Below are positions 3,996 through 4,200 of a DNA stretch of 9,300 bases, piece after piece. The stretch is from contig JAEOTE010000006.1 in the NCBI GenBank assembly GCA_016839945.1, positions 1 to 9,300 of the forward strand. The letters run 5' to 3'. Numbering within the stretch: the first letter of the stretch is position 1; every line of letters starts with the position of its first letter. This stretch comes from Candidatus Heimdallarchaeota archaeon (GTDB lineage: Archaea; Asgardarchaeota; Heimdallarchaeia; Heimdallarchaeales; Heimdallarchaeaceae). A program made the translations under genes and the position numbers. The notes under the pieces are model-generated. The model was given only the letters and a program-made list of their open reading frames with translations, did not search any database and had not been told where the DNA came from.

Positions 3996-4014
3996 TTTTT
4001 TTTCTATTCTTTTG

Positions 4015-4024
4015 CCTAGTAAGG
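4015..4024 (+). other. Leader strand (cctagtaagg) of a perfect 10-bp leader/trailer helix; partner at 4185-4194
   Basis: The reverse complement of ccttactagg (4185-4194) is exactly cctagtaagg (4015-4024). The helix can extend by t4025-a4184 and a g4014.t4195 wobble. Confidence 0.7.
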
Positions 4025-4027
4025 TCA

Positions 4028-4056
4028 GACAACATCTAGTTGTGTGCTAGATGGTC
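4028..4056 (+). other. Extra stem-loop between the closing helix and 5S segment B: gac-aa-catctag-[ttgtgtg]-ctagatg-gtc
   Basis: Perfect 7-bp inverted repeat catctag (4033-4039) / ctagatg (4047-4053), plus gac (4028-30) / gtc (4054-56) across a 2-nt aa bulge. It has no counterpart in canonical 5S rRNA. Confidence 0.55.
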
Positions 4057-4059
4057 GGG

Positions 4060-4123
4060 AAAGTTAAGGCCTTCCACGTGTGGCTTTGTACTAAGTTCCG
4101 CGAGGGCTTGGGAACAGCCGTTC
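4060..4123 (+). rRNA. Segment B: equivalent of the 3' two-thirds of a 5S rRNA (loop B 3' side, helix II 3' strand, helix V, loop E, helix IV, loop D)
   Basis: aaagttaagg matches the archaeal GAAGUUAAG loop B motif. ccttccac is the helix II 3' strand with a bulged C. ggct (4082-4085) pairs with agcc (4116-4119) as helix V. ttgtact / gggaac matches the loop E GUAC / GGGAAC signature. aagttc (4093-4098) pairs with gggctt (4104-4109) as helix IV, with loop cgcga. The following gttc resembles the ..CCCGGUUCGCCGCC 3' end of the Haloarcula 5S as I recall it. Confidence 0.8.
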
Positions 4124-4141
4124 GCTGCGATGCGTCGCGGC
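4124..4141 (+). rRNA. Helix I equivalent closed into a hairpin: 6-bp stem gctgcg/cgcggc with 6-nt loop atgcgt
   Basis: Hand-paired: g4124-c4141, c4125-g4140, t4126.g4139, g4127-c4138, c4128-g4137, g4129-c4136; loop 4130-4135. In a normal 5S these two strands are the free 3' and 5' ends. An alternative register (4117-4120 with 4138-4141 plus 4123-4125 with 4132-4134) also yields a closed hairpin. Confidence 0.65.
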
Positions 4142-4184
4142 CATAGTGAAGGGGTAACACTCAGACTCATTCCGAACCTGAAAA
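4142..4184 (+). rRNA. Segment A: equivalent of the 5' third of a 5S rRNA (loop A, helix II 5' strand, loop B 5' side, helix III, loop C)
   Basis: GGCCAUAGUGAAGGGGUAACACUCAGACUCAUUCCGAACCUGA closely follows the archaeal 5S consensus GGCCAUAG-(helix II)-ACAC-CnnGA-CUCAUUCCGAAC-nnnG. Helix III is tcag (4161-4164) paired with ctga (4178-4181). Confidence 0.8.
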
Positions 4185-4194
4185 CCTTACTAGG
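4185..4194 (+). other. Trailer strand (ccttactagg) of the 10-bp leader/trailer helix; partner at 4015-4024
   Basis: See the partner feature. It is followed directly by the T6 run at 4195-4200. Confidence 0.7.
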
Positions 4195-4200
4195 TTTTTT
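4195..4200 (+). terminator. Oligo-T tract (T6), likely archaeal intrinsic termination signal for the 5S-like RNA
   Basis: tttttt lies directly after the trailer strand. Oligo-T tracts are the established archaeal RNAP termination signal. Confidence 0.5.

What the first reader, a model, noticed from the sequence alone, without database searches (positions are those of the whole stretch)
4014..4195. Perfect 10-bp leader/trailer helix clamps the new termini between the putative TSS and the oligo-T terminator
cctagtaagg (4015-4024) is the exact reverse complement of ccttactagg (4185-4194). The helix can extend by t4025-a4184 and g4014.t4195. It encloses the whole permuted 5S and interrupts it within the 3' side of loop B, between helix III and helix II. 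Archaeal 16S and 23S rRNAs are flanked by such processing stems, which are used for excision and circularisation. Here the stem could hold the two new ends together as a structural substitute for backbone continuity, or act as a processing or ligation platform. A 10-bp perfect complement placed exactly here, in a region otherwise about 80% A+T, is unlikely to be chance. I have not computed a probability.
Basis: seen in the sequence. Interest (0 to 1): 0.75.

Follow-up and report, generated by a model that had tools for sequence, protein, structure and literature searches.

The report
Processing stem of a permuted 5S gene
The 10-11 bp helix is real and conserved: it closes the transcript of a circularly permuted 5S rRNA gene found across Heimdall-type and other archaea, and it probably guides the tRNA-splicing enzymes to cut and re-join the RNA into a normal-sequence, likely circular, 5S rRNA, which would explain why these genomes seem to lack a 5S gene.

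Summary
Bases 4015-4025 and 4184-4194 form a perfect 11-bp inverted repeat, and G4014.U4195 adds a twelfth pair. Between them lies a circularly permuted 5S rRNA gene: 4061-4128 matches Rfam 5S positions 50-115, a UGCG tetraloop caps helix I, and 4134-4183 matches positions 2-51.

In the single sequence the repeat is only modestly significant. Comparison settles it. I found 48 distinct permuted 5S loci in Heimdallarchaeota MAGs, one Odinarchaeota MAG and unassigned GC-rich archaeal contigs. All have a leader/trailer helix of 8-17 bp. There are about a dozen unrelated stem sequences, each self-complementary, and 11 of 12 pairs show compensatory changes in 35 Heimdall-type loci.

The helix is the outer arm of a relaxed bulge-helix-bulge motif: a 3-nt trailer bulge (4181-4183), a 4-bp helix (4056-4059 with 4177-4180) and a 3-nt leader bulge (4060-4062). 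Symmetric cleavage and ligation would give GAACCUGAA|AGUUAAGG, the canonical 5S sequence, as a 121-nt circle. Cleavage and ligation are inferred, not shown.

The two closed Heimdallarchaeum genomes were published with no predictable 5S gene. Each holds two of these permuted genes. I found no earlier description in the searched literature.

The parts
3981..3995 (+). Putative archaeal BRE/TATA element (AAAGATTAAAAATAA). It places the transcription start at about 4014-4017, the first bases of the leader strand.
   Evidence: Read directly from the sequence. The same A/T box lies at the same distance upstream of the stem in the Heimdall-type loci listed. The start site is inferred from the usual archaeal TATA-to-start spacing of about 26 nt and was not mapped.
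4014..4025 (+). Leader (5') strand of the outer leader/trailer helix h.
   Evidence: I6, 11 nt, 100%. helix 1: 12 pairs, 11 with changes on both sides, 94.8% of cells paired.
4026..4032 (+). Linker CAGACAA. CAG 4026-4028 is invariant and is an alternative ('first-site') partner for CUG 4178-4180.
   Evidence: One search lists these as invariant columns; the alternative 4-bp helix 4025-4028 with 4178-4181 is 94.3% paired, and its first pair is lost in 8 of 35 loci.
4033..4053 (+). Conserved leader hairpin: 7 bp (4033-4039 with 4047-4053) and a 7-nt loop. It is specific to Heimdall-type loci and absent from the Odin and GC-rich types.
   Evidence: helix 2: 96.7% paired, 3 pairs with compensatory changes; leader insertion of 30-32 nt in the Heimdall type and 0 nt in L039, L094, L097, L104, L105, L108, L109 and L117.
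4056..4059 (+). H5', the leader strand of the central 4-bp helix (CGGG).
   Evidence: helix 3: paired with 4177-4180 in 35 of 35 loci, with G.U alternating with A-U at the second pair; equivalent tetranucleotides are CGUG/CACG in Odin, and CCGU/GCGG and CCGA/UCGG in GC-rich loci.
4060..4062 (+). B1, the 3-nt leader bulge (AAA). The predicted cut leaves A4062 as the first base of the excised 5S.
   Evidence: The cut position is inferred from the known BHB rule of symmetric cleavage within the bulges (PMC7758197).
4062..4130 (+). 5S rRNA 3' part: the 3' side of loop B, helix II 3' strand, helices IV/V with loops E and D, and helix I 3' strand.
   Evidence: 4061-4128 matches RF00001 positions 50-115 (22.3 bits, E 0.0045). 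helices 4-8 show covariation.
4131..4134 (+). UGCG tetraloop joining the ancestral 3' and 5' ends of the 5S and capping helix I.
   Evidence: Sequence. helix 8 (4124-4130 with 4135-4141): 99.6% paired; the cap is a UNCG- or GNRA-type tetraloop in nearly all lineages.
4134..4183 (+). 5S rRNA 5' part: helix I 5' strand, loop A, helix II 5' strand, loop B, helix III and loop C.
   Evidence: matches RF00001 positions 2-51 (27.3 bits, E 0.00015).
4177..4180 (+). H3', the trailer strand of the central 4-bp helix (CCUG). In the mature fold C4178-G4180 belong to the helix III 3' strand.
4181..4183 (+). B2, the 3-nt trailer bulge (AAA) between H and the outer helix. The predicted cut leaves A4182 as the last base of the excised 5S.
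   Evidence: in the 41 loci where the reported stem is the true leader/trailer helix directly flanking B2, it starts 0-1 nt after the 3-nt bulge (0-3 nt in the table). In the four L030-type loci a 5-bp inner helix abuts the bulge. The three remaining rows (L021, L022, L103) report a chance match instead of the true stem. The cut position is inferred.
4184..4195 (+). Trailer (3') strand of the outer leader/trailer helix h.
4195..4200 (+). Oligo-T run (T6), the likely archaeal transcription terminator directly after the helix.
   Evidence: Sequence. A T-run follows the trailer strand within 0-15 nt in the aligned loci. Termination here is inferred.

Best explanation
The helix is the outer arm of the processing stem of a circularly permuted 5S rRNA gene in a Heimdallarchaeial genome.

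The unit appears to be transcribed on its own, from about 4014 to the T-run at 4195-4200. The gene order is: leader, 5S 3' part, UGCG tetraloop closing helix I, 5S 5' part, trailer.

The leader strand 4014-4025 pairs with the trailer strand 4184-4195. Next to this helix, the trailer has a 3-nt bulge (A4181-A4183). Then trailer CCUG (4177-4180) pairs with leader CGGG (4056-4059), and the leader continues with AAA (4060-4062). This geometry is that of a relaxed archaeal bulge-helix-bulge (hBH) motif.

I infer three steps. The tRNA-splicing endonuclease EndA cuts symmetrically in the two bulges. The ligase RtcB joins A4182 to A4062. The product is a 121-nt covalently closed 5S rRNA that reads ...GAACCUGAA|AGUUAAGG..., restoring the canonical helix III and loop B sequence. 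After excision, CUG re-pairs with CAG 4162-4164 to form the native helix III.

Shown here: the helix, its conservation and covariation, the permuted 5S, the motif geometry, and the canonical sequence of the predicted product. Inferred: cleavage, ligation, circularity of the mature RNA, and the transcript ends.
For: 1. The repeat is present and is part of the MFE and centroid folds.

2. The two 5S halves match RF00001 in swapped order (27.3 and 22.3 bits). The colinear reading scores only 22.8 bits against a gathering score of 38, and nothing passes gathering.

3. Two collection scans found 48 distinct permuted loci with complete flanks.

4. Outer-helix covariation: 11 of 12 pairs have changes on both sides. 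About a dozen unrelated stem sequences are each complementary. Examples are CCUAGUAAGG, UCUCAACGAUGU, CCUAACAAAACU, UCUAAUGGCA, GGUAGUAUCG and seven GC-rich ones of 12-16 bp. Paralogous copies in one genome carry different stems (L030 versus L076; L022 versus L029).

5. The central helix H is paired 4 of 4 in all 35 Heimdall-type loci and co-varies between lineages: CGGG or CAGG with CCUG, CGUG with CACG, CCGU with GCGG, CCGA with UCGG. The leader tetranucleotide is complementary to the trailer, not a copy of it. This argues for pairing rather than a duplication relic.

6. A 7x7 register scan puts the best H pairing on the diagonal that yields a canonical-length product. Every locus gives GAAC-N4-AA-G[UC][UC]AAG. 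Because the bulge sequences are redundant, any symmetric cut position gives the same product.

7. Helix I is capped by UNCG or GNRA tetraloops in nearly all lineages.

8. Wu et al. 2022 could not predict a 5S gene in the two closed Heimdallarchaeum genomes (PMC8813620). Each holds two permuted copies (L030 and L076; L041 and L063).

9. Precedents: BHB-mediated circularisation of archaeal 16S and 23S (PMC7758197), circular 23S in ribosomes (PMC12918454), and permuted tRNA genes processed at a terminal BHB (PMC3978253).
Against: There are no RNA data. A search for RNA-derived contigs that carry the ligated junction found only genome-colinear pseudo-ORFs.

The motif is relaxed. No inner helix h' follows the leader bulge.

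In the window and all Heimdall-type loci, a 30-32 nt insertion containing a conserved hairpin separates the outer helix from H on the 5' strand. The element is therefore a three-way junction and not a textbook BHB. Only the Odin, GC-rich and L030-type loci have a helix that abuts H on both strands.

In five of seven GC-rich loci H has 3 standard pairs plus an A.A or G.A.

Two other 4-bp registers are nearly as well paired in the Heimdall type, at 94.3% and 92.1%. The first of them would leave the hairpin inside the product.

Nearest-neighbour energies do not separate the conformers (-28 to -31 kcal/mol).

H3' never varies within the Heimdall type because it is also part of helix III. Within that group the support for H is therefore one-sided.
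Confidence: 0.6

Rival explanations
1. Structural clamp only. The transcript is not ligated. The mature 5S stays a permuted linear RNA whose two ends, in helix III and loop B, are held together non-covalently by the 10-16 bp helix. The helix, with or without the leader hairpin, projects from the ribosome like an expansion segment.
For: The helix is long and becomes GC-rich in the GC-rich lineages (12-16 bp), as expected for a stable clamp. It begins at the predicted transcription start and ends at the T-run, so no trimming would be needed. The clamp conformer with native helix III is as stable as the BHB-like conformer (-30.6 versus -28 to -30 kcal/mol). The leader hairpin is conserved with covariation, which fits a retained structural element.
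Against: It does not explain why a leader tetranucleotide complementary to the trailer's helix III strand is kept and co-varies across lineages, since that pairing would compete with native helix III. It does not explain the fixed 3-nt spacing. It does not explain why symmetric excision would restore the canonical sequence exactly in all 48 loci. It would also leave 37 extra nucleotides (4026-4062) at a protein-binding region of the 5S.
Confidence: 0.2
2. Circular intermediate, then re-opening. As with permuted tRNA genes, the transcript is circularised at the BHB-like motif and then cut in the helix I cap (UGCG, 4131-4134). This would give a conventional linear 5S with normal ends.
For: This is the pathway documented for permuted tRNA genes of Cyanidioschyzon merolae (PMC3978253). 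The predicted circle, opened in the loop, folds into a 5S-like three-domain structure.
Against: The cap is a stable UNCG or GNRA tetraloop on a regular helix in nearly all lineages, and helix I is lengthened in the GC-rich loci. That suggests a retained structural cap rather than a processing site. No RNase P or tRNase Z-type recognition element exists for 5S.
Confidence: 0.12
3. Chance complementarity or a decaying pseudogene. The inverted repeat would be an accident in AT-rich DNA, or a relic of a tandem 5S duplication with no present function.
For: Perfect inverted repeats of at least 11 nt arise somewhere in 4.7% of shuffles of the 401-nt region. The leader (CCUAGUAAGGUCAGAC) resembles 5S loop A, helix II and helix III (CCAUAGUGAAGG...UCAGAC). 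Rfam can read 4010-4133 as a weak colinear 5S (22.8 bits). Both fit an origin by tandem duplication.
Against: There is compensatory change at 11 of 12 pairs, and about a dozen unrelated but self-complementary stems across 48 loci. 5S loops and helices are strictly conserved. No other 5S gene could be predicted in the closed genomes. A duplication origin is compatible with a present function.
Confidence: 0.02

Closest known systems
BHB-containing processing stems flanking archaeal 16S and 23S rRNA (cleaved by EndA, circularised by RtcB)
   Same: Leader/trailer complementarity encloses the rRNA. A 3-nt bulge, a 4-bp helix and a 3-nt bulge lie next to a long helix. The predicted outcome is excision and circularisation. 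In Pyrococcus the mature 23S ends are joined directly (PMC7758197).
   Different: Here the RNA is the 5S, which reviews describe as not processed this way (PMC12918454). The unit is monocistronic. The gene itself is permuted, so ligation creates an internal canonical sequence rather than joining the natural ends. The motif is relaxed, and in the Heimdall type a hairpin interrupts it.
Circularly permuted tRNA genes (Cyanidioschyzon merolae and other algae; Thermofilum pendens)
   Same: The 3' half is encoded before the 5' half. The natural ends are joined by a short intervening sequence. The precursor termini form a strict or relaxed BHB that is processed by the splicing machinery into a circle (PMC3978253).
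   Different: This is a different RNA class. The tRNA circles are re-opened by RNase P and tRNase Z, whereas here the helix I cap looks like a permanent tetraloop. The 5S arrangement is clade-wide rather than affecting scattered genes.
Split tRNA genes of Nanoarchaeum equitans
   Same: A long helix of 12-14 bp between extra leader and trailer sequences brings the two halves together and presents a relaxed BHB for EndA and ligase.
   Different: The halves there are separate transcripts joined in trans. Here there is one transcript in cis, and the product is predicted to be circular.
Permuted mitochondrial 5S rRNA of brown algae and other stramenopiles (Valach et al. 2014, PMC4267664; Rfam mtPerm-5S)
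   Same: It is a 5S in which helix I is closed as a hairpin and the ends lie elsewhere, and standard models also miss it.
   Different: There the ends lie at the open three-way junction between domains alpha and gamma. No terminal helix or BHB is described, and the RNA stays permuted. Here the break is in helix III and loop B (domain beta) and carries a dedicated processing stem. No mtPerm-5S match appeared at E <= 10.
Circular forms of conventional 5S rRNA in Sulfolobus and Halobacterium
   Same: Circular 5S molecules exist in archaea (PMC12558985).
   Different: Those come from ordinary colinear genes, have heterogeneous junctions, and are thought to be linked to degradation. Here a single precise junction is encoded by the gene architecture.

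Membership tests
5S rRNA (Rfam RF00001) | Colinear match to the covariance model at or above the gathering score (38 bits) | tested here: not met
   Nothing passes gathering in the window or in 10 related loci. The best colinear reading, 4010-4133, scores 22.8 bits.
5S rRNA (Rfam RF00001) | All model segments present with the conserved loops (loop A CCAUAG, loop C CAUUCCGAAC, GUUAAG, loop E GUACU, loop D GGGAA) | tested here: met
   4134-4183 matches model positions 2-51 (27.3 bits) and 4061-4128 matches 50-115 (22.3 bits), in swapped order. The motifs are invariant in 35 loci.
5S rRNA (Rfam RF00001) | Helices I, II, IV and V supported by covariation | tested here: met
   helix I 99.6% paired (3 pairs compensatory), helix II 98.4% (5 compensatory), helices IV/V 90-100% (3 compensatory).
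5S rRNA (Rfam RF00001) | Incorporation into the large ribosomal subunit | not testable with these tools
   Indirect only: no other 5S gene could be predicted in the closed Heimdallarchaeum genomes (PMC8813620).
Archaeal bulge-helix-bulge splicing motif (strict hBHBh' or relaxed hBH) | Central helix H of 4 bp | tested here: met
   4056-4059 with 4177-4180 is paired 4 of 4 in 35 of 35 Heimdall-type loci. It is 4 of 4 in Odin L039 and 3-4 of 4 in the seven GC-rich loci.
Archaeal bulge-helix-bulge splicing motif (strict hBHBh' or relaxed hBH) | 3-nt bulge on the 3' strand between H and the outer helix h | tested here: met
   A4181-A4183. In the 41 loci where the reported stem is the true leader/trailer helix directly flanking B2, it starts 0-1 nt after the 3-nt bulge (0-3 nt in the table). 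The four L030-type loci have an additional 5-bp inner helix abutting the bulge, and three table rows (L021, L022, L103) report a chance match instead of the true stem.
Archaeal bulge-helix-bulge splicing motif (strict hBHBh' or relaxed hBH) | Outer helix h continuous with H on the 5' strand | tested here: not met
   In the window and all Heimdall-type loci, 30-32 nt (linker plus hairpin, 4026-4055) lie between h and H. It is met in Odin L039, in seven GC-rich loci (insertion 0), and in L030-type loci through a 5-bp inner helix GUGGU/ACCAC.
Archaeal bulge-helix-bulge splicing motif (strict hBHBh' or relaxed hBH) | 3-nt bulge on the 5' strand followed by an inner helix h' of at least 2 bp (strict form) | tested here: not met
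   AAA 4060-4062 is followed by GUUAAG, which has no partner upstream of 4177. The motif can therefore only be the relaxed hBH form, which most archaeal tRNA introns also use (PMC3978253).
Archaeal bulge-helix-bulge splicing motif (strict hBHBh' or relaxed hBH) | Cleavage by EndA and ligation by RtcB | not testable with these tools
   No RNA or enzyme data. The search for junction-bearing contigs was negative and uninformative.
rRNA leader-trailer processing helix | Complementary 5' leader and 3' trailer enclosing the whole rRNA, maintained by covariation | tested here: met
Circularly permuted RNA gene with terminal BHB (permuted tRNA type) | 3' half upstream of 5' half, natural ends joined by a short intervening sequence, and precursor termini able to form a BHB or BHB-like motif | tested here: met
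   order; UGCG linker; relaxed motif.
Circularly permuted RNA gene with terminal BHB (permuted tRNA type) | Circular intermediate re-opened at the natural ends | not testable with these tools
   Conservation of a tetraloop cap argues against re-opening but does not test it.
Permuted mitochondrial 5S (Rfam mtPerm-5S) | Match to the mtPerm-5S model, with the ends at the alpha/gamma junction | tested here: not met
   No such match among hits with E <= 10 in 3900-4300. The break here is at model positions 50/51, in domain beta.

The most novel reading that the evidence does not exclude
In Heimdallarchaeia, which include the closest known archaeal relatives of eukaryotes, in at least one Odinarchaeote, and in further unassigned GC-rich archaeal lineages, the only 5S rRNA genes are circularly permuted. 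The functional 5S rRNA in the ribosome would then be a covalently closed 121-nt circle made by the tRNA-splicing endonuclease and ligase. This would be the first rRNA gene permuted at the DNA level in archaea and the first organisms whose working 5S rRNA has no ends.
Probability: 0.45. Interest if true: 0.92.

Novelty: new variant of a known kind. Interest (0 to 1): 0.85.

Why it matters
It would explain a practical puzzle. Standard tools find no 5S rRNA gene in Heimdallarchaeial genomes, including the two closed ones, so genome-quality standards that require a 5S gene penalise these MAGs. Parts of the gene are instead annotated as hypothetical proteins.

It would extend BHB-dependent RNA rearrangement from tRNAs and 16S/23S to the 5S rRNA. 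It predicts a circular 5S in the ribosome of a lineage central to the debate on eukaryote origins.

It also gives a directly testable prediction, one exact ligation junction. A simple search pattern or covariance model built from these loci would allow re-annotation of Asgard genomes.

Tried and rejected
1. Single-sequence statistics. The repeat alone is not compelling: 4.7% of shuffles have a perfect inverted repeat of at least 11 nt.

2. Colinear 5S reading of 4010-4133 (22.8 bits). I rejected it as the functional gene because the leader lacks loop C and helix I pairing, while the swapped halves match well. It may be a trace of an origin by tandem duplication.

3. Alternative registers for the central helix. 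U4025-G4028 with C4178-A4181 is 94.3% paired, and U4055-G4058 with the same trailer bases is 92.1%. The first is missing in L030-type loci, and the second gives a product with two extra A. I ranked both below 4056-4059 with 4177-4180, which is 100% paired and gives the canonical product. Neither is excluded.

4. Thermodynamic comparison of the BHB-like and clamp conformers. It was uninformative.

5. Search for RNA-derived contigs with the ligated junction, using a 66-aa translation across the predicted junction. It returned only five genome-colinear pseudo-ORFs.

6. Taxonomic placement of the GC-rich loci. NCBIfam shows archaeal housekeeping genes (thermosome, S6e, PCNA, uS2, MetRS) but gives no lineage.

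7. The bacterial and other archaeal hits of the first genome scan (Ilumatobacteraceae, Sphaerochaetaceae, Methanomassiliicoccaceae and others). These are ordinary 5S genes preceded by a chance GTACT in the upstream spacer, not permuted genes.

8. Literature searches for a permuted or circular 5S gene in Asgard archaea found nothing.
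Full report
**Observation.** The window carries CCTAGTAAGGT at 4015-4025 and ACCTTACTAGG at 4184-4194. This is an 11-nt perfect inverted repeat whose arms are 158 nt apart (pair I6). G4014.U4195 can add a wobble pair. RNAfold of 4005-4205 puts this helix in both the MFE and the centroid structure. On its own the repeat is only modestly surprising. In 300 dinucleotide-preserving shuffles of 3900-4300, a perfect inverted repeat of at least 11 nt appeared somewhere in 4.7% of cases. 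The case for function rests on placement and comparison, not on the single sequence.

**What the helix encloses.** No Rfam family except a tRNA passes its gathering score in the window. The best colinear 5S reading, 4010-4133, scores 22.8 bits against a threshold of 38. Searched separately, 4134-4183 matches RF00001 positions 2-51 (27.3 bits) and 4061-4128 matches positions 50-115 (22.3 bits).
- The gene is therefore a 5S rRNA in swapped order. The 3' part comes first.
- Helix I (4124-4130 with 4135-4141) is closed by a UGCG tetraloop, and the 5' part follows.
- The break falls at model positions 50/51, the AA bulge on the 3' strand of helix III, just before GUUAAG.
- A TATA-like box (3981-3995) lies about 26 nt upstream of the leader strand, and a T6 run (4195-4200) follows the trailer strand. 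The unit therefore looks like an independent transcript that begins and ends with the helix. The start and stop are inferred.
- Neighbours are HypF and HypE, tRNA-Ser(GCU) on the minus strand, and a flavodoxin-like gene.

**Relatives.** I scanned one genome per GTDB species with a pattern that requires loop E upstream of loop A and loop C within 90-120 nt. The scan gave 91 loci.
- The 28 loci of these that also match the refined permuted-gene pattern are 27 loci from MAGs labelled mostly Heimdallarchaeota (three carry other or generic archaeal labels and one Thorarchaeota), which have exactly the window's 90-nt spacing, and one Odinarchaeota MAG with 91 nt. All have the same permuted order.
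- The remaining hits are ordinary 5S genes preceded by a chance GTACT.
- A more specific pattern run on metagenome contigs gave 25 further loci. These include eight GC-rich archaeal contigs of unknown lineage with the same permuted order.
- The window is 89-90% identical to L031 and L061. It is syntenic (HypF, HypE, tRNA-Ser, 5S) with many Heimdallarchaeota MAGs, including AB_125.
- None of the ten permuted loci tested yields a 5S hit at the Rfam gathering score.
- Wu et al. 2022 state that 5S rRNA genes 'could not be predicted' in the two closed Heimdallarchaeum genomes (PMC8813620). My scan finds two permuted copies in each (L030 and L076; L041 and L063).
- I found no paper or preprint describing a permuted 5S gene in archaea.

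**The helix is conserved by covariation.** In alignment A1 (35 distinct Heimdall-type loci), the 12 pairs 4014-4025 with 4184-4195 are 94.8% paired. Eleven of them show changes on both sides. Sliding the partner strand by 1-3 columns drops pairing to 24-50%.
- The innermost pair, U4025-A4184, is kept in only 22 of 35 loci.
- Across all 48 distinct loci with complete flanks there are about a dozen unrelated stem sequences. Each is complementary over 8-17 bp, with mainly G.U exceptions. Examples are CCUAGUAAGG/CCUUACUAGG, UCUCAACGAUGU/ACACUGUUGAGA, CCUAACAAAACU/AGUUUUGCUGGG, UCUAAUGGCA/UGCCAUUAGA, GGUAGUAUCG/CGAUACUACC (Odin), and seven GC-rich stems of 12-16 bp.
- Two paralogous genes in one genome have almost the same 5S core but unrelated stems (L030 versus L076; L022 versus L029).

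**The helix is part of a bulge-helix-bulge-like element.** In every locus the trailer strand of the helix is preceded by three unpaired bases (AAA, AAU or GAA). In the window these are A4181-A4183.
- Before them come four bases, CCUG 4177-4180 in the window, that are complementary to a conserved leader tetranucleotide, CGGG 4056-4059. The leader tetranucleotide is followed by three bases, AAA 4060-4062.
- This 4-bp helix is paired in 35 of 35 Heimdall-type loci, with G.U alternating with A-U at the second pair.
- It changes in concert between lineages: CGUG/CACG in Odin, and CCGU/GCGG and CCGA/UCGG in two GC-rich loci. Five GC-rich loci have three standard pairs plus an A.A or G.A.
- The leader tetranucleotide is complementary to the trailer, not identical to it, so it is not simply a relic of a duplicated helix III strand.
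- The layout has the 3' strand bulge at the outer junction, a 4-bp helix, and then three unpaired bases on the 5' strand. This is the layout of the archaeal BHB motif as it occurs at tRNA position 37/38 (my own knowledge; definitions in PMC3978253; symmetric cleavage in PMC7758197).
- A 7x7 scan of leader and trailer registers puts the best pairing on the diagonal that yields a product of canonical length.
- With symmetric cuts, every locus gives GAAC-N4-AA-G[UC][UC]AAG. In the window this is ...GAACCUGAA|AGUUAAGG..., which is the Rfam consensus for helix III and loop B. Because the two bulges are redundant in sequence, the product is the same whichever symmetric position is cut.
- The predicted product is A4062-A4182, 121 nt. 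Opened in silico in the tetraloop, it folds into a 5S-like structure.

**Departures from a textbook BHB.**
- There is no inner helix after the leader bulge, so the motif can only be the relaxed hBH form.
- In the window and all Heimdall-type loci, the outer helix and the 4-bp helix are separated on the 5' strand by 30-32 nt (4026-4055). This stretch contains an invariant CAG (4026-4028) and a hairpin (4033-4039 with 4047-4053) that is itself supported by covariation.
- The Odin and GC-rich loci have no insertion. The L030 type has the hairpin further out and a 5-bp helix, GUGGU/ACCAC, abutting the bulge.
- Two other 4-bp registers are nearly as well paired in the Heimdall type. The first, U4025-G4028 with C4178-A4181, would keep the hairpin inside the product.
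- Nearest-neighbour energies do not discriminate between the conformers.

**Mechanism proposed.** The transcript folds so that the leader/trailer helix closes it. The trailer copy of the helix III 3' strand pairs with the leader tetranucleotide. EndA cuts in both bulges. RtcB joins A4182 to A4062. The freed CUG then re-pairs with CAG 4162-4164 to form native helix III.
- The product would be a covalently closed 5S.
- Helix I is capped by UNCG or GNRA tetraloops in nearly all lineages and is lengthened in the GC-rich ones. This suggests the cap is permanent and the circle is not re-opened.
- The helix, the permuted gene, the motif geometry and the canonical product sequence are shown. Cleavage, ligation and circularity are inferred.
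- An attempt to find RNA-derived contigs with the junction, through a translated query, returned only genome-colinear pseudo-ORFs.

**Rivals.**
- Clamp only, no ligation. This fits the length and stability of the helix and the conserved hairpin. It does not explain the co-varying leader tetranucleotide, the fixed 3-nt spacing or the exact canonical product.
- Re-opening of a circular intermediate in the helix I loop, as for permuted tRNAs. This is possible but is disfavoured by the tetraloop caps.
- Chance or a pseudogene. The comparative data exclude this.

**Comparison with known systems.** The closest known systems are the BHB-containing processing stems of archaeal 16S and 23S rRNA, the permuted tRNA genes of Cyanidioschyzon and Thermofilum, and the split tRNAs of Nanoarchaeum. 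This case differs in the RNA concerned, because 5S is described as not processed this way. It also differs in that the permutation is in the gene, that it is clade-wide, and that the mature product is predicted to be circular. The permuted mitochondrial 5S of brown algae has a different break point and no processing stem. I rate this a new variant of a known kind, of high interest.

Noticed in passing
window 4040-4351 (+) and the minus strand of 4062-4183; proteins P0001-P0005: Gene callers have annotated translations of this 5S gene as 'hypothetical proteins' of 57-85 aa in NCBI, JGI and ENA records (for example MSLSVTPSLWPRRIAANGCSQALAELSTKPHVEGLNF...). The window also has a spurious 103-aa ORF across the gene. 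These are misannotations caused by the undetected 5S.
   Followed up: partly
L094, L097, L104, L105, L106, L108, L109, L117 (metagenome contigs): These are GC-rich permuted 5S genes from unassigned archaeal lineages. Neighbouring genes encode thermosome, PCNA, uS2, S6e and MetRS. They have 12-16 bp terminal stems, no leader hairpin, and a lengthened helix I capped by UUCG, GCAA or GUAA. My first genome scan required ACAC in loop B and would have missed them, so their distribution in sequenced genomes is unknown.
   Followed up: partly
L039:2432-2642 (-), Odinarchaeota MAG HHBFW-2_201803_bins_221: An Odinarchaeota MAG has the cleanest version of the element. A 10-bp stem GGUAGUAUCG/CGAUACUACC abuts CGUG/CACG directly, with bulges AAA and GAA. 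This suggests the arrangement predates the Heimdall-specific hairpin or arose more than once.
   Followed up: partly
window 4033-4053 and A1 columns 28-48: The Heimdall-type leader hairpin has a well-conserved loop region (GGAUGCGUUCC in most loci, UAGUUGUGUGCUA in the window) and shows covariation in its stem. Its role is unexplained. It could be a junction scaffold, a stand-in for the inner helix h', a protein site, or a relic of the helix III and loop C of a duplicated copy.
   Followed up: partly
window 4015-4030 versus 4141-4166, and 4184-4194 versus 4069-4077: The leader CCUAGUAAGGUCAGAC resembles 5S loop A, helix II and helix III (CCAUAGUGAAGG...UCAGAC). The trailer CCUUAC resembles the helix II 3' strand (CCUUCCAC). 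This would fit an origin of the Heimdall-type gene by tandem duplication and truncation, with the terminal helix derived from helix II of the dimer. I did not test it statistically.
   Followed up: no
window 3806-3890 (-); L022, L026, L041, L076: In most Heimdall loci the permuted 5S lies next to a divergently oriented tRNA-Ser(GCU). The second genomic copy lies next to tRNA-His(GUG), which ARAGORN reports as 90-91 nt in three loci and 75 nt in L076. The longer ones may carry an intron or extension.
   Followed up: no
L108:11560-12483 (+) and L094:727-1617 (-): The ORFs matching ribosomal protein S6e are about 300 aa, although the S6e models cover only the first 150 residues or so. This may be a C-terminal extension or a miscalled start.
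   Followed up: no
L031 (JBHLQZ010000003.1): The MAG labelled 'Candidatus Thorarchaeota archaeon QM1B.68' is 89% identical to the window over 5.9 kb and carries the Heimdall-type permuted 5S. Its label may be a misassignment.
   Followed up: no
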